Source: Escherichia coli (GTDB lineage Bacteria > Pseudomonadota > Gammaproteobacteria > Enterobacterales > Enterobacteriaceae). From it: a stretch of DNA of 64,000 nt. Positions 1-64,000 of the stretch are shown in pieces; within the stretch, counting starts at the first letter, position 1, and each line of letters opens with the position of its first letter. The DNA lies in assembly GCF_013122565.1 (NCBI RefSeq), contig NZ_CP053258.1; one strand, 5' to 3'. The notes under the pieces were generated by a model that ran no database searches, was not told the origin of the DNA, and saw only the letters and a list, made by a program, of their open reading frames with translations. Position numbers and translations under genes: made by a program.

Positions 1-157
1 ATACTAACTTTAGTTCGCTGGGTTGGCCTGCATCCCCGAGTTTTCCTTACTTATCTTCTCAGAGATGCGGCGTGTTTGAGAACAGTGGACAACAGGACTG
101 CGCTATTGCGCCAGGCAACACAAAAGGTTTTGTGACTTGTACCCAATAAGATGACCA

Positions 158-232
158 TGCCGATAAGGCGTTTGCGCCGCATGAGCCGGGAGCCTGTACC
201 GGATGCGATGCTTACGCATCTTATTCGGCCTA
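158..232. repeat. REP (repetitive extragenic palindromic) element pair just downstream of xseA
   Basis: Two inverted copies of the GCCGGATGCG...CGCCTTATCCGGCCTAC-like motif (gccgataaggcgtttgcgccgcatgagccgg / ccggatgcgatgcttacgcatcttattcggcctac) read directly in the sequence. Confidence 0.7.
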
Positions 233-1606
233 CGGGGTCACCACTTTTTTGCGTGGTTTGCGGGTTTTTGTGACGTCGCTCACCACGCTTACCACTACGC
301 CATCATTCAAACGCGTGGTTAATGTATCGCCCGCTTTCACTTGCTTAACCTGCTTCAACACCGCTCCATCTGCGGCGCTGGTGACGCTATAACCGCGCGC
401 CAGCGTTGAAAGTGGGCTGACGGCTTCCAGGTGCGTTACCGCATTACCGAAACGTTCACGCGTGGCGCTAAGCTGTGTGCGCAGGGTTTCCGCTACACGA
501 TACTCCAGTTGCTGAATGCGGGATTGTGCGCGATGAATACGCGTTTGTGGATTTTGTTGATTCAGCCGTTGCGTGAGCCGCTGCTGTTGCTGCCCGGCAC
601 GCTTAAGCTGATTTTCCAGCGCAAAGCTCATCCGTTTTTGCAGGCGTTCAAGCATGGTTTGCTGGCGTGCCAGCCGGAGCTGCGGATGCTGTTGCTGTAA
701 TCGGTGATGAATCTGCGTAAAGCGACGCGTCCGGTTGGCGAGATAATAATCCATCGCCATCTCCAGCCGTTGACGGGTCGATTGCACCTGGCGCAGTAAC
801 TCTTGTTGATTGCGGCTCACTACTTCAGCGGCGGCAGACGGTGTTGGTGCACGCAGATCGGCAACAAAATCGGCAATGGTCACATCCGTCTCATGCCCGA
901 CGGCGCTGACGACCGGAATGCGACTGTCAAAGATCGCCCGCGCTACACGTTCGTCGTTAAAACTCCATAAATCTTCCAGCGAACCGCCACCGCGCCCAAC
1001 GATCAATACGTCACACTCGTTGCGCTGATTCGCCATTTCAATGGCGCGAACAATTTGCCCTGGCGCGTCATCACCCTGAACGGCGGTGGGGTAGATGATC
1101 ACCGGCAAAGACGGATCGCGACGTTTTAACACATGCAAAATATCATGTAGCGCAGCACCGGTTTTTGAGGTGATCACACCGACGCAGTGCGCGGGGGAGG
1201 GAAGTGGTTTCTTTAACTGCTGATCGAACAAACCTTCTGCCTGCAACTTCGCTTTGAGCTGTTCGTACTTCTGTTGCAGAAGCCCTTCACCGGCCGGCTG
1301 CATACTCTCAACGATTATCTGGTAGTCGCCGCGCGGCTCGTAGAGCGTAATATTGGCGCGAACTAAAACTTGTTGCCCATGCTGTGGGCGGAAGGTCACC
1401 CGGCGGTTGCTGTTACGGAACATCGCGCAGCGCACCTGGGCGGTATCGTCTTTGAGCGTAAAGTACCAGTGACCGGAGGCTGGTTGCGTGAAATTAGAAA
1501 TTTCGCCGCTGATCCACACCTGTCCCATCTCATGCTCAAGCAGCAGACGAACCGTTTGATTCAGGCGACTAACGGTAAAAATTGCAGGGGATTGAGAAGG
1601 TAACAT
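230..1606 (-). CDS. xseA: Exodeoxyribonuclease VII large subunit
   Basis: 458-codon ORF; translation [39 protein letters not shown]... matches XseA as I recall it (OB-fold N-terminus, coiled-coil C-terminus); divergent from guaB as in E. coli. Confidence 0.93.
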
Positions 1607-1698
1607 GTGAGCGAGATCAAATTCTAAATCAGCAGGTTATTCAGTCGATAGTAACCCGCCCTCCGGGGATAGCAAGCATTTTTTGCAAAAAGGGGTAG

Positions 1699-1714
1699 AT
1701 GCAATCGGTTACGC
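1699..1714 (+). promoter_or_regulatory. Putative PurR operator overlapping the guaBA promoter
   Basis: gatgcaatcggttacg resembles the PurR box consensus ACGCAAACGTTTGCGT (about 11/16) and lies between the candidate -35 and -10; guaBA is a known PurR-regulon member. Confidence 0.4.
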
Positions 1715-1718
1715 TCTG

Positions 1719-1724
1719 TATAAT
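1719..1724 (+). promoter_or_regulatory. guaBA promoter -10 hexamer (TATAAT) with GC-rich discriminator
   Basis: Perfect TATAAT 44 bp upstream of the guaB ATG, followed by GC-rich gccgcggc typical of growth-rate-controlled promoters; the upstream region is A/T-rich (UP-element-like ttttttgcaaaaa). Confidence 0.55.
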
Positions 1725-61547: not shown

Positions 61548-62347
61548 AAGATTTCATCACCGAAGCATGGCTAAGAGCGAACCATACGCTCAGCGAAGGC
61601 GCAGAGATCCATCTCCCTGCGGACAGTCGCCTGACGCCCTCTGCCCGGGAGTTGCTGGAAAGCCGCCATCTGCGCATCAAGTTTATTGACGAGCAGGGCC
61701 GCCTGTTTGTTGACGATGAACAGCAGCAGCCGCAGCCCGTTCATGGGCTGACCAGTAGCGATGAACATCCGCAGGCGTGCTGCGAACTGTGCCGCCAGCC
61801 GGTGGCAAAAAAGCCGGATACGCTGACTCACCTGTCGGCGGAAAAAATGGTCGCCAAAAGCGATCCGCGCCTGGGTTTTCGCGCGGTTCTCGACAGCACC
61901 ATTGCGCTGGCAGTGTGGCTGCAAATTGAACTGGCAGAACCGTGGCAGCCATGGCTGGCGGACATCCGCTCGCGTCTTGGCAACATTATGCGTGCCGATG
62001 CGCTGGGGGAACCGTTGGGCTGCCAGGCGATTGTCGGGCTTTCTGACGAAGATCTGCATCGGCTTTCTCACCAGCCGCTGCGCTATCTCGACCACGATCA
62101 TCTGGTGCCGGAAGCCAGCCACGGGCGCGATGCTGCGTTGCTGAATCTGCTACGCACCAAAGTGCGGGAAACCGAAACCGTAGCGGCGCAGGTGTTTATC
62201 ACCCGCAGCTTTGAAGTATTACGCCCGGACATCTTGCAGGCGCTGAACCGCCTTTCGAGCACGGTCTACGTGATGATGATCCTGAGCGTAACGAAGCAGC
62301 CGCTAACGGTGAAGCAGATCCAACAACGACTGGGGGAAACGCAATGA
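61544..62347 (+). CDS. eutT: Ethanolamine-utilisation corrinoid adenosyltransferase
   Basis: 267 aa; [37 protein letters not shown]...; 4-nt overlap with eutQ. Confidence 0.9.
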
Positions 62348-63360
62348 TTATTGAACGTTGTCGTGAACTGGCGTTGCGAGCGCCCGCCAGAGTGGTTTTT
62401 CCGGATGCGTTAGATCAACGTGTGCTGAAAGCTGCGCAATATTTACATCAACAAGGTCTGGCAACGCCCATTCTGGTCGCTAATCCGTTTGAACTTCGTC
62501 AGTTTGCGCTCAGTCATGGCGTAGCGATGGACGGGCTACAGGTGATTGATCCGCATGGCAACCTCGCAATGCGGGAAGAATTTGCTCATCGCTGGCTGGC
62601 CCGCGCGGGCGAAAAAACGCCGCCGGATGCGCTGGAAAAACTTACCGATCCGCTGATGTTCGCCGCCGCAATGGTCAGCGCCGGTAAAGCGGATGTCTGT
62701 ATCGCGGGCAATCTCTCTTCCACGGCGAATGTGCTGCGTGCCGGATTACGCATTATTGGCTTGCAGCCAGGCTGTAAAACGCTCTCATCCATTTTCCTGA
62801 TGCTGCCACAGTACAGCGGTCCGGCGTTGGGTTTTGCCGATTGCAGCGTGGTGCCACAGCCGACGGCGGCACAACTGGCGGATATCGCGCTTGCCAGCGC
62901 CGAAACCTGGCAGGCCATCACCGGAGAAGAACCGCGCGTGGCGATGCTGTCGTTTTCCAGCAATGGTAGCGCCCGTCACCCCTGCGTTGCCAACGTCCAG
63001 CAGGCGACAGAAATCGTCCGTGAGCGCGCACCAAAGCTGGTTGTCGATGGCGAGTTGCAGTTTGACGCCGCCTTCGTGCCGGAAGTGGCGGCGCAAAAAG
63101 CGCCTGCCAGCCCGCTACAAGGCAAAGCCAATGTGATGGTTTTTCCGTCGCTGGAGGCAGGAAATATTGGCTACAAAATCGCACAACGACTCGGCGGATA
63201 TCGTGCCGTCGGGCCATTGATACAAGGGCTTGCCGCGCCGATGCACGATCTCTCTCGTGGTTGTAGCGTGCAGGAAATTATCGAGCTGGCGCTGGTGGCA
63301 GCTGTGCCGCGTCAGACAGAAGTGAACCGCGAAAGCAGTTTACAAACACTGGTTGAATGA
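62344..63360 (+). CDS. eutD: Phosphotransacetylase (PTA-type) of the eut operon
   Basis: 338 aa; [34 protein letters not shown]...; PTA catalytic-domain fold; 4-nt overlap with eutT. Confidence 0.92.
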
Positions 63361-63398
63361 ACGGTCCCGTTCTGGACCCTGATAAAGAGGAAAGCACA

Positions 63399-63692
63399 AT
63401 GGAAGCATTAGGAATGATCGAAACCCGGGGCCTGGTTGCACTGATTGAGGCTTCTGACGCGATGGTGAAAGCTGCGCGCGTCAAGCTGGTTGGTGTTAAG
63501 CAGATTGGCGGCGGCCTGTGTACTGCCATGGTTCGTGGTGATGTTGCAGCCTGTAAAGCAGCGACCGATGCCGGTGCCGCAGCGGCACAGCGTATCGGCG
63601 AGCTGGTATCTGTACACGTTATCCCGCGTCCGCACGGCGACCTGGAAGAAGTGTTCCCGATCGGCCTGAAAGGCGATAGCAGCAACCTGTAA
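63399..63692 (+). CDS. eutM: Ethanolamine-utilisation BMC-domain shell protein
   Basis: ORF trimmed to [33 protein letters not shown]... (97 aa); AAGAGG RBS. Confidence 0.93.
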
Positions 63693-63798
63693 TCACCCTG
63701 TGTGACGTCGATTCGGGCGTCACGCTCTCTCATTTTTCATTTTACCTTCCGCGGAGGGTAGGGGGAGCTTTTACCTGAAATACGCCACGGAGGCGGGT

Positions 63799-64000
63799 AT
63801 GAAACTGGCAGTCGTCACTGGACAAATTGTTTGTACCGTACGCCATCACGGACTGGCGCATGACAAATTGCTGATGGTGGAAATGATTGATCCACAAGGT
63901 AATCCTGACGGGCAATGCGCCGTCGCCATCGACAATATTGGCGCGGGAACCGGGGAGTGGGTGTTGCTGGTGAGTGGCAGTTCTGCCCGCCAGGCGCATA
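63799..64000 (+). CDS. eutN: Ethanolamine-utilisation BMC vertex protein EutN (5' fragment; truncated by window end)
   Basis: MKLAVVTGQIVCTVRHHGLAHDKLLMVEMIDPQGNPDGQCAVAIDNIGAGTGEWVLLVSGSSARQAH...; an open frame in the ORF track only as a partial; GGAGG RBS upstream. Confidence 0.85.
   Translation, partial: MKLAVVTGQIVCTVRHHGLAHDKLLMVEMIDPQGNPDGQCAVAIDNIGAGTGEWVLLVSGSSARQAH

What the first reader, a model, noticed from the sequence alone, without database searches (positions are those of the whole stretch)
1..64000. No evidence in this window for a novel or horizontally acquired system
Every ORF longer than about 60 codons that is not antisense to a better gene is accounted for by a recognisable conserved E. 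coli protein. Gene order is collinear with the known xseA-to-eutN chromosomal segment, intergenic gaps are short, and there are no integrase, transposase, phage, toxin-antitoxin, restriction-modification or defence-like ORFs and no CRISPR repeats. This negative result is itself the main conclusion of the hunt.
Basis: inference. Interest (0 to 1): 0.2.

Follow-up and report, generated by a model that had tools for sequence, protein, structure and literature searches.

The report
Ordinary E. coli core chromosome segment
This 64 kb window is an ordinary, intact stretch of E. coli chromosome (xseA to eutN) with no hidden mobile or defence system; the only accessory DNA is the last 149 bases of a large adhesin gene clipped by the left edge.

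Summary

- **Gene content:** all 56 K-12 genes from xseA to eutN are present, intact and in K-12 order. Window 381-26196 aligns to K-12 without any gap. Intergenic DNA is 8.3% and the largest gap is 380 bp.
- **Searches that found nothing:** no tRNA, no Rfam family at gathering score, no CRISPR or tandem array (only REP elements). Of the 181 alternative-frame ORFs of 60 aa or more and the 53 small intergenic ORFs, none has a credible Pfam hit; the 181 also have no credible PADLOC hit.
- **Correction 1:** window 1-149 encodes the last 48 codons of a 2,683-aa RatA-like adhesin. In the nearest genomes this gene belongs to the sinH-sinI-adhesin island between yfgJ and xseA. K-12 lacks the island, and this particular 3' end occurs in only 10 of 5,426 complete genomes.
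- **Correction 2:** hyfG carries 48 bp (16 codons) that K-12 lacks. The segment holds a VGPxxRxSG motif conserved in HycE and in the Pyrococcus membrane-bound hydrogenase. K-12 therefore has a deletion allele, shared by about half of the genomes that carry hyf.
- **Loose end:** one unidentified alternative-frame ORF of 60-104 aa hits the unannotated family phrog_2217 at E=4.7e-66. It is probably the 96-aa ORF antisense to yfgG.

The parts
1..149 (+). 3' end (last 48 codons plus stop, reading frame 3) of a RatA-like giant adhesin gene; tail of the sinH-sinI-adhesin (ila / CS54-like) island, which is absent from K-12
   Evidence: The translation matches the C-terminus of the 2,683-aa 'adhesion domain-containing protein' WP_000082076.1 of strain UTME-7 at 47 of 48 residues. 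In UTME-7 the gene follows sinH and sinI, between yfgJ and xseA. The full-length relative has 9 InvE_AD and 9 BIg21 repeats. This 3' end occurs in 10 of 5,426 genomes.
153..229 (.). REP-containing spacer between the adhesin gene and the xseA stop codon
   Evidence: Not aligned to UTME-7 over 153-287. Sub-threshold match to naRNA4, a REP-derived RNA family, at 162-230.
230..1606 (-). xseA (exonuclease VII large subunit), unusually divergent next to the island junction
   Evidence: 93.6% amino-acid identity to K-12 over 455 residues. 36 nucleotide differences from K-12 in 501-1000 and 23 in 1001-1500.
1768..4880 (+). guaB-guaA
   Evidence: 99.8% amino-acid identity to K-12, intact.
4866..4882 (.). 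Unoccupied prophage attachment site at the 3' end of guaA
   Evidence: In the phage TL-2011b record, the host flank starts at window 4866. In two Klebsiella prophage records, the host flank ends at 4882 and an integrase gene follows guaA. The window is gapless against K-12 at this point.
4973..6548 (-). yfgI, yfgH, yfgG
   Evidence: 99.4-100% amino-acid identity to K-12.
6900..9143 (+). pdeF (cyclic-di-GMP phosphodiesterase)
9182..12794 (-). ppx, ppk
   Evidence: 100% amino-acid identity to K-12.
12966..14641 (-). purN, purM
14966..17763 (+). upp, uraA, hda (hda has a CTG start, as in K-12)
17901..19744 (-). yfgD (arsC-like), bepA
19957..21018 (+). yfgO / perM
21056..34685 (-). hyfABCDEFGHIJ-hyfR-focB (hydrogenase 4 / formate hydrogenlyase-2 operon), all 12 genes intact
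   Evidence: 96.7-99.6% amino-acid identity to K-12, with no internal stop codons. A hyfG probe matches 4,288 of 5,426 genomes.
26197..26244 (-). 48-bp in-frame segment of hyfG (16 aa, [16 protein letters not shown]) that is absent from K-12. It is flanked by the 10-bp direct repeat AATCACGGGC at 26187-26196 and 26235-26244.
   Evidence: alignment and protein comparison; the segment aligns to HycE ARDFSNVGPMVRASGH and to Pyrococcus MBH AIEMGAVGPTARGSGI; allele counts across genomes.
34943..35985 (-). bcp, gcvR
36131..38986 (+). dapA, bamC, purC
39154..42819 (+). ypfJ, tmcA, ypfH
42820..42899 (.). REP element whose copy structure differs from K-12 (many small indels)
   Evidence: indels; naRNA4 at 58.9 bits, just under the gathering score of 59.5; repeat family D1.
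42900..44615 (-). ypfN, dapE, yffB
44996..45154 (+). ypfM (19 aa) and a sub-threshold STnc250-like RNA match at 45035-45154
   Evidence: ypfM 100% identical to K-12. STnc250 at 37.5 bits against a gathering score of 42.
45154..50131 (-). acrD, narQ
50337..54128 (+). aegA, nudK, ypfG
54224..57197 (-). tktB, talA
57486..59765 (+). maeB
60056..64000 (+). eutS, eutP, eutQ, eutT, eutD, eutM, eutN: the start of the ethanolamine-utilisation microcompartment operon. eutN is cut by the window end. eutQ is 4 codons shorter than in K-12.

Best explanation
The window is a vertically inherited piece of E. coli core chromosome, in reverse orientation to K-12 coordinates 2.572-2.635 Mb. It carries 56 housekeeping and metabolic genes from xseA to eutN, all intact and in the reference order.

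The gene sets are purine and pyrimidine synthesis (guaBA, purMN, purC, upp-uraA), polyphosphate metabolism (ppk-ppx), the hydrogenase-4 operon (hyf-focB), lysine and envelope genes (dapA, bamC, dapE), efflux and sensing (acrD, narQ), pentose-phosphate genes (tktB, talA), maeB, and the first seven eut microcompartment genes.

No mobile element, prophage, defence system, toxin-antitoxin pair, restriction-modification system or CRISPR array lies inside it. The one piece of accessory DNA is at the extreme left: the last 149 bases of a RatA-like adhesin gene. That gene belongs to the sinH-sinI-adhesin island inserted between yfgJ and xseA, and almost all of the island lies outside the window.

The remaining differences from the reference are ordinary allelic variation: about 1-2% mostly synonymous substitutions, REP copy variation, a 12-bp eutQ indel, and the 48-bp hyfG segment. 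For hyfG the window has the ancestral full-length form and K-12 has a repeat-mediated deletion.
For: - **Alignment to K-12:** 381-26196 is gapless, and 26235-64000 has only small indels.
- **Gene content:** 56 of 56 K-12 proteins are recovered full length, and every gene has valid start and stop codons.
- **Spacing and composition:** intergenic fraction 8.3%, largest gap 380 bp. GC content is 0.43-0.58 in every 1-kb bin except 6001-7000 (0.37), which holds the AT-rich intergenic DNA around yfgG; that stretch is also gapless against K-12.
- **Coverage in other genomes:** each third of the window is covered 99-100% by single places in thousands of complete E. coli genomes.
- **RNA and repeats:** no tRNA, no Rfam family at gathering score, and only REP-type repeats.
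- **PADLOC on the real genes:** the only strong hit is HyfR against the generic sigma-54 AAA+ models RtcR/PspF.
- **PADLOC and Pfam on other ORFs:** the 181 alternative ORFs and 53 small intergenic ORFs give only chance-level hits, E of 0.006 or worse across about 90 queries per scan.
- **Left edge:**
- **hyfG allele:**
Against:
- The nearest complete genomes are only 98.5-98.9% identical over 20-kb stretches. The source lineage is therefore not represented among the 5,426 genomes, and 'ordinary' is judged against relatives rather than against the source strain itself.
- Small proteins and small RNAs that belong to no described family cannot be excluded by these searches.
Confidence: 0.93

Rival explanations
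1. A real phage-derived or otherwise unannotated gene overlaps a core gene in another frame. The best candidate is the 96-aa ORF at 6393-6680 (+), antisense to yfgG. It was missed because it was dismissed as an antisense artefact.
For: - One member of alignment A2 hits phrog_2217 at E=4.7e-66.
- Of the 11 untested A2 ORFs of 84 aa or more, only the K-12 version of 6393-6680 is held in the public protein collection. It was called as a gene in older annotations, for example CFT073 c3023.
- The ORF is open in both the window and K-12.
Against: - phrog_2217 has no annotation.
- The only phage record with near-identical DNA is TL-2011b, and there the matching region is host flank (yfgI, yfgH, yfgG, 5' end of pdeF) beyond the lysis genes. 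That record does not annotate this ORF.
- Cluster members vary from 55 to 103 aa, and the E. fergusonii version is truncated to 69 aa. That is not the pattern of a conserved protein.
- There is no Pfam or PADLOC hit.
- Current NCBI annotation calls yfgG and a 50-aa ORF at this position instead.
- The DNA is gapless against K-12.
- That this ORF is the one behind the PHROG hit is inferred by elimination, not shown.
Confidence: 0.04
2. The window itself lies inside a horizontally acquired region. On this reading the adhesin island extends rightwards and brought xseA-guaB with it by recombination, so part of the 'core' DNA here is imported.
For: - xseA is only 93.6% identical in protein to K-12.
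- There are 36 differences in 501-1000 and 23 in 1001-1500 against K-12, and a second divergent patch in guaB with 30 differences in 2501-3000 against K-12. The enclosing 1-kb bin 2001-3000 has 39 differences against K-12 and 45 against UTME-7.
Against: - This would be homologous replacement of orthologous genes, not gain of a new system. Gene content and order are unchanged.
- Beyond about 3 kb, divergence is an even 0.1-3%.
- Raised divergence next to island junctions is a common pattern in E. coli (general knowledge, not tested here).
Confidence: 0.25

Closest known systems
E. coli K-12 MG1655 chromosome 2,572,000-2,635,600 (eutN to xseA; b2456-b2509)
   Same: The same 56 genes in the same order and orientation, at 98.2-98.6% nucleotide identity. 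381-26196 is gapless.
   Different: - K-12 has yfgJ directly after xseA, with no adhesin island.
- K-12 hyfG lacks 48 bp.
- K-12 eutQ is 4 codons longer.
- The REP structure at 42820-42896 differs.
sinH-sinI-ratA locus ('ila' cluster of ExPEC; derived from the Salmonella CS54 island xseA-shdA-ratB-ratA-sinI-sinH)
   Same: - Position next to xseA, between xseA and yfgJ.
- Gene order sinH (inverse autotransporter), sinI, then a giant repeat adhesin whose 3' end faces xseA (PMC12928451; PMC3591323).
   Different: - Only the last 149 bases lie in the window.
- This 3' allele is rare: 10 of 5,426 genomes.
- The E. coli locus has no shdA or ratB, going by the nearest genome.
HycE, the large subunit of E. 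coli formate hydrogenlyase-1 (PDB 7Z0S chain E), and other group 4 [NiFe]-hydrogenase / complex I NuoD-type subunits
   Same: The window's HyfG aligns end to end with HycE (E=1.8e-292). The alignment includes the 16-residue segment with VGPxxRxSG and both Ni-binding Cys pairs, [11 protein letters not shown] and DPCYSCTDR.
   Different: HyfG belongs to the larger Hyf complex, which has extra antiporter-like subunits (HyfB, D, F). The K-12 reference HyfG lacks the 16 residues; the window's does not.
Integration site of epsilon15/phiV10-like prophage TL-2011b, and of Klebsiella prophages, at the guaA 3' end
   Same: The same 17-bp junction, window 4866-4882, overlapping the guaA stop codon.
   Different: The site is empty in the window. 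No integrase or phage gene is present.

Membership tests
E. coli core chromosome segment xseA-eutN | All reference genes present, intact and collinear | tested here: met
   56 of 56 K-12 proteins are recovered full length. There are two collinear BLAST segments.
Genomic island / integrative mobile element | Integrase, transposase or recombinase gene | tested here: not met
   None among the real genes, which are K-12 orthologues. None among the 181 alternative ORFs or the 53 small ORFs by Pfam.
Genomic island / integrative mobile element | A block of DNA absent from related genomes | tested here: not met
   Inside 381-64000 the largest indel against K-12 is 48 bp. Only 1-380 at the left edge has no K-12 counterpart in the alignment; it includes the clipped end of an island that lies outside the window.
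Prophage | Phage structural, lysis or replication genes, or similarity to phage genomes | tested here: not met
   Megablast of window 1-50000 against 50,697 phage records finds only records that carry host flank or contaminating host DNA; 50001-64000 was not searched against phage records. There is one unresolved hit to the unannotated phrog_2217.
Anti-phage defence systems (PADLOC-DB v2) | A match to a defence protein model, in a system context | tested here: not met
   - Real genes: only HyfR against the generic RtcR/PspF AAA+ models, plus single weak hits at E between 7e-6 and 8e-4.
- Alternative ORFs: two hits at E=0.006-0.008 among 91 queries, and none among the other 90.
CRISPR array | Regularly spaced direct repeats of 24-48 nt | tested here: not met
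   The direct-repeat and tandem-repeat scans return only REP elements and chance pairs.
sinH/sinI/RatA (ila, CS54-like) adhesin island | Giant adhesin with BIg21 and InvE_AD repeats, downstream of sinH (inverse autotransporter) and sinI, between yfgJ and xseA | tested here: inconclusive
   Met in the nearest genome, UTME-7. The window holds only the last 48 codons, 47 of 48 identical. The rest of the island in the source strain is outside the window.
Group 4 [NiFe]-hydrogenase large subunit (HyfG/HycE) | N- and C-terminal Cys pairs that bind the Ni-Fe centre, and a C-terminal extension cleaved on maturation | tested here: met
   [11 protein letters not shown] and DPCYSCTDR are present, with a full-length alignment to HycE that includes the C-terminal tail.
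Group 4 [NiFe]-hydrogenase large subunit (HyfG/HycE) | Conserved VGPxxRxSG segment | tested here: met
   Present in the window's HyfG (residues 386-401) and aligned to HycE and Pyrococcus MBH. Absent from K-12 HyfG.
Group 4 [NiFe]-hydrogenase large subunit (HyfG/HycE) | Hydrogen-evolving activity of the Hyf complex | not testable with these tools
   This needs H2 measurement in a strain lacking Hyd-1, Hyd-2 and Hyd-3.

The most novel reading that the evidence does not exclude
The reference K-12 hyfG is a 48-bp deletion allele formed between 10-bp direct repeats. It removes 16 residues that include the VGPxxRxSG motif, which is conserved in HycE and in the Pyrococcus membrane-bound hydrogenase.

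This deletion could be the 'additional, unknown, biosynthetic problem' that kept K-12 hydrogenase-4 inactive even after promoter replacement and C-terminal engineering (PMC7654741). Lineages like this window's keep all 12 hyf-focB genes intact with the full-length hyfG, so they may make an active, possibly energy-conserving formate hydrogenlyase-2.

I found no mention of this indel in the papers I could search. That library is limited, and the original 1997 hyf paper is not held.
Probability: 0.35. Interest if true: 0.55.

Novelty: already known. Interest (0 to 1): 0.18.

Why it matters
For the scan, this is a clean negative: the window needs no further hunting for new systems. Two by-products may be useful.

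1. The window's left boundary sits on the junction of the sinH/sinI/RatA-like adhesin island, and it carries a rare allele of the adhesin's C-terminus. The neighbouring window to the left should therefore hold that accessory locus.
2. The comparison shows that the K-12 hydrogenase-4 catalytic subunit lacks a conserved 16-residue core segment, while about half of the E. coli genomes that carry hyf keep it, this one included. That gives a simple, testable explanation for the long-debated inactivity of K-12 Hyd-4.

Tried and rejected
- **Rfam at a relaxed threshold:** only REP-derived naRNA4-like matches and a sub-threshold STnc250 match at ypfM. No riboswitch or new small RNA.
- **PADLOC on the real genes:** the E=5e-110 hit is HyfR's sigma-54 AAA+ and HTH domains against RtcR/PspF models. 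It is not a defence gene. The other hits (E between 7e-6 and 8e-4) are lone, weak matches with no system context, so I rejected them.
- **Identifying the phrog_2217 hit:**
  - The 30 longest alternative ORFs were scanned one by one and all were negative.
  - tblastn of 69 of the remaining 71 ORFs against phage records gave only shadow matches to host genes carried in phage records.
  - Exact look-ups singled out the 96-aa ORF at 6393-6680. The assignment stays inferred.
- **Literature on the hyfG indel:** nothing found. PMC305750 (Self et al. 2004) is not held.
- **The 38-aa hydrophobic ORF at 59799-59915 (-) between maeB and eutS:** I considered it as a small membrane protein or type I toxin. 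It stays open in K-12 through a net in-frame 3-nt indel, but nearly every substitution changes the amino acid. That looks like neutral drift in AT-rich DNA, so I did not pursue it.
- **Source strain:** I did not try to identify it. No complete genome exceeds about 98.9% identity over 20 kb.

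
Full report
**What the window is.** Megablast of the three thirds of the window against 5,426 complete E. coli genomes finds each third in 5,425 of them, almost always once and on the chromosome. The annotated genes run from xseA, guaB and guaA through pdeF, ppk and ppx, the hyf operon, tmcA, acrD, narQ and tktB to maeB. The best identities are only 98.5-98.9% over about 20 kb. The source lineage itself is therefore not in that collection, but the locus is plainly the E. coli chromosome.

I fetched K-12 MG1655 2,568,000-2,638,000 and aligned its reverse complement to the window. There are two collinear segments: 381-26196 with no gap at 98.6%, and 26235-64000 at 98.2% with 55 gap positions.

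**Gene content.** tblastn with the K-12 proteins of this interval recovers all 56 genes from xseA to eutN at full length and 93.6-100% identity. The hyfG match shows a 16-residue insertion in the window relative to K-12. yfgJ, der, eutE, eutJ and eutG, which lie outside the interval, are not found. Every gene has a valid start and stop codon, and eutN runs off the right end.

Intergenic DNA is 5,337 nt (8.3%). The largest gaps are 380 bp (yffB-ypfM), 351 bp (yfgG-pdeF) and 324 bp (purM-upp). The two low-GC bins, 6001-7000 and 44001-45000, are these AT-rich regulatory gaps, and both align to K-12.

**Searches for hidden systems.**
- There are no tRNA or tmRNA genes and no Rfam family at gathering score.
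- At E up to 0.1, Rfam gives only REP-derived naRNA4-like matches (162-230, 42833-42892, 54169-54222) and a sub-threshold STnc250 match at 45035-45154 over ypfM.
- Repeat scans return REP elements and chance pairs, with no CRISPR-like array.
- I extracted every six-frame ORF that does not share a stop codon with a real gene. That gave 181 ORFs of 60 aa or more, and 53 ORFs of 25-59 aa lying at least half in intergenic DNA.
- PADLOC on the 181 gives two hits at E=0.006-0.008 among 91 queries and none among the other 90. Pfam gives one hit in each set at E=0.006-0.007. Pfam on the 53 small ORFs gives none. These are chance-level results.
- PADLOC on the real genes gives one strong hit, E=5e-110 to RtcR/PspF models. 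This is the sigma-54 AAA+ activator HyfR. Nine lone weak hits make up the rest.

There is thus no integrase, transposase, toxin-antitoxin, restriction-modification or defence candidate.

**Left edge: a correction.** K-12 does not align before position 381, and most genomes align only from 203. The five best genomes also match 1-152. In strain UTME-7 that match is the end of an 8,052-nt gene for an 'adhesion domain-containing protein'. Reading frame 3 of window 1-149 gives TNFSSLGWPASPSFPYLSSQRCGVFENSGQQDCAIAPGNTKGFVTCTQ*, which is identical at 47 of 48 positions to that protein's C-terminus.

Upstream in UTME-7 the order is der, yfgJ (annotated there only as a zinc ribbon domain-containing protein), sinH (inverse autotransporter; IAT_beta E=2e-107), a SinI-family gene, the 2,683-aa adhesin (9 InvE_AD and 9 BIg21 repeats), then xseA. 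This is the known sinH-sinI-ratA 'ila' cluster of E. coli, thought to derive from the Salmonella CS54 island next to xseA (PMC12928451; PMC3591323).

Only 10 of 5,426 genomes carry this particular 3' end. Positions 153-287 are a REP-containing spacer that differs even from UTME-7. xseA next to the junction is unusually divergent: 93.6% protein identity, with 36 differences in 501-1000 and 23 in 1001-1500.

So the window does contain the tip of a horizontally acquired, strain-variable locus. It holds only 0.2-0.6% of the window's length and no complete gene.

**hyfG.** The break between the two K-12 segments is a 48-bp segment, window 26197-26244, inside hyfG. It is bounded by the 10-bp direct repeat AATCACGGGC. 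The window's HyfG is 571 aa and K-12's is 555 aa. The extra residues are [16 protein letters not shown].

In a search of solved structures, the window's HyfG aligns over nearly its whole length to HycE of the formate hydrogenlyase structure 7Z0S (E=1.8e-292). The 16 residues pair with ARDFSNVGPMVRASGH in HycE and with AIEMGAVGPTARGSGI in the Pyrococcus membrane-bound hydrogenase. The long form is therefore ancestral, and K-12 carries a deletion of a conserved core segment.

A 66-nt probe across the K-12 junction matches 4,288 genomes. It matches in full in 2,115 (the deletion allele) and only partly in the rest. A probe centred on the 48 bp matches 2,000 genomes. The polymorphism is thus close to 50:50 among genomes that carry hyf.

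About 1,140 genomes lack the region altogether. This agrees with 4,286 genomes covering at least 80% of window 22001-44000 and with the reported loss of hyf in the F/G/B2 lineage (PMC6896753).

Finney and colleagues replaced the K-12 hyf promoter and engineered the HyfG C-terminus without obtaining H2. [quoted passage not shown] Other groups assume an active FHL-2 in E. coli (PMC11841067). I found no paper that mentions the indel, but the library is partial. That the deletion explains K-12's inactive Hyd-4 is my inference and has not been shown. In the window all 12 hyf-focB genes are intact, whereas UTME-7 has a frameshifted hyfI and an internal stop in hyfF.

**Phage checks and a loose end.** PHROG scans of the alternative ORFs gave nothing for 33068-63999. 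One member of the 431-33250 set hit the unannotated family phrog_2217 at E=4.7e-66. The tool does not name the member.
- The 30 longest ORFs, tested individually, are all negative. The hit therefore belongs to an ORF of 60-104 aa and must be nearly identical to the family.
- Megablast of window 1-50000 against 50,697 phage records finds only records that include host DNA. The end of phage TL-2011b (41251-44784) is window 4866-8403 at 98.7%: host flank with yfgI, yfgH, yfgG and the 5' end of pdeF, lying after the phage lysis genes. Two Klebsiella prophage records carry xseA-guaB-guaA ending at window 4882, followed by an integrase gene. The others are unannotated fragments or bacterial contigs.
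- tblastn of 69 of the other 71 ORFs gives only such shadow matches.
- Of the 11 untested ORFs of 84 aa or more, only the K-12 version of 6393-6680 (+), antisense to yfgG, exists in the public protein collection. It appears there as 'hypothetical protein', for example CFT073 c3023, with relatives of 55-103 aa.

By elimination this shadow ORF is the likely hit, with the family probably seeded from host flanks of prophages at the guaA site. That assignment is inferred, not shown.

A by-product of these checks is that window 4866-4882, which overlaps the guaA stop codon, is the junction in both sets of prophage records. It is thus a phage attachment site, and in the window it is empty.

**Other differences from K-12.** These are a 5-bp insertion upstream of hyfA (34712-34716), REP restructuring at 42820-42896, single-base indels in the maeB-eutS spacer, and a 12-bp deletion in eutQ near 61036-61040. 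Substitutions run at about 0.1-3% per kb with a few denser patches. Most proteins are 99-100% identical to K-12, as expected if most substitutions are synonymous natural divergence.

**Verdict.** The finding is an accurate description of an ordinary core-genome window, with one factual slip at the left edge and a slight overstatement about ORFs. Nothing in the window is new in kind. The hyfG allele comparison is the only item with wider interest, and it concerns the K-12 reference more than this window.

Noticed in passing
window 26197-26244 (hyfG, - strand): K-12's HyfG lacks 16 residues ([16 protein letters not shown]) that are present here and conserved in HycE and Pyrococcus MBH. The deletion lies between 10-bp direct repeats. 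2,115 of the 4,288 genomes that carry hyfG have the deletion allele. It is a possible cause of the unexplained inactivity of K-12 hydrogenase 4.
   Followed up: partly
window 1-149 (+) and 153-229: Tail of a 2,683-aa RatA-like adhesin gene of the sinH-sinI-adhesin island, followed by a REP spacer. This 3' allele occurs in only 10 of 5,426 complete E. coli genomes.
   Followed up: yes
window 4866-4882: The guaA 3' end is the host-prophage junction in the phage TL-2011b record and in two Klebsiella prophage records, where an integrase gene sits next to guaA. The attachment site is unoccupied in the window.
   Followed up: partly
window 431-33250; probably 6393-6680 (+): One alternative-frame ORF of 60-104 aa hits the unannotated family phrog_2217 at E=4.7e-66. 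The member was not identified. The best guess is the 96-aa ORF antisense to yfgG, which older annotations called as a gene (CFT073 c3023).
   Followed up: partly
window 21056-34685: The hyf-focB operon is not universal. About 1,140 of 5,426 complete genomes have no match to the hyfG probe, in line with the reported loss in the F/G/B2 lineage. In the nearest genome, UTME-7, hyfI is frameshifted and hyfF has an internal stop, whereas all 12 genes are intact here.
   Followed up: partly
window 230-1606 and 2501-3000: xseA is 93.6% identical in protein to K-12, and a patch in guaB has 30 nucleotide differences per 500 nt although the protein is 99.8% identical. These are likely recombination tracts next to the island junction.
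   Followed up: no
window 6566-6718 (+): A 50-aa intergenic ORF between yfgG and pdeF that NCBI annotates as a hypothetical protein (WP_000017552.1). The exact sequence occurs on 105 contigs. It has no family hit.
   Followed up: partly
window 59799-59915 (-): A 38-aa hydrophobic ORF in the AT-rich maeB-eutS spacer. It stays open in K-12 despite three single-base indels (net in frame), but almost all substitutions change the amino acid, so it is probably non-coding.
   Followed up: partly
window 45035-45154 (+): Sub-threshold Rfam match to STnc250, a Salmonella Hfq-binding RNA (37.5 bits against a gathering score of 42). It overlaps the 3' part of ypfM and runs up to the acrD stop codon.
   Followed up: no
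window 162-230, 17775-17880, 42833-42892, 54147-54222: REP elements. The copy at 42833-42892 scores 58.9 bits against naRNA4 (gathering score 59.5) and differs from K-12 by many small indels.
   Followed up: partly
window 61036-61040 (eutQ): A 12-bp in-frame deletion relative to K-12 (EutQ is 229 aa here and 233 aa in K-12). EutQ is 94.4% identical, the second most divergent protein in the window.
   Followed up: no
window 7255-7507 (pdeF): The Aeromonas phage AP1 record (MT713136.1, 247657-247909) contains 253 bp that are 98.8% identical to E. coli pdeF and annotated as a hypothetical protein. This is probably contamination or a chimera in that record.
   Followed up: no
whole window: No complete E. 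coli genome exceeds about 98.9% identity over a 20-kb third of the window, and the best-matching strains differ between thirds. The source lineage is not represented among the 5,426 genomes.
   Followed up: no
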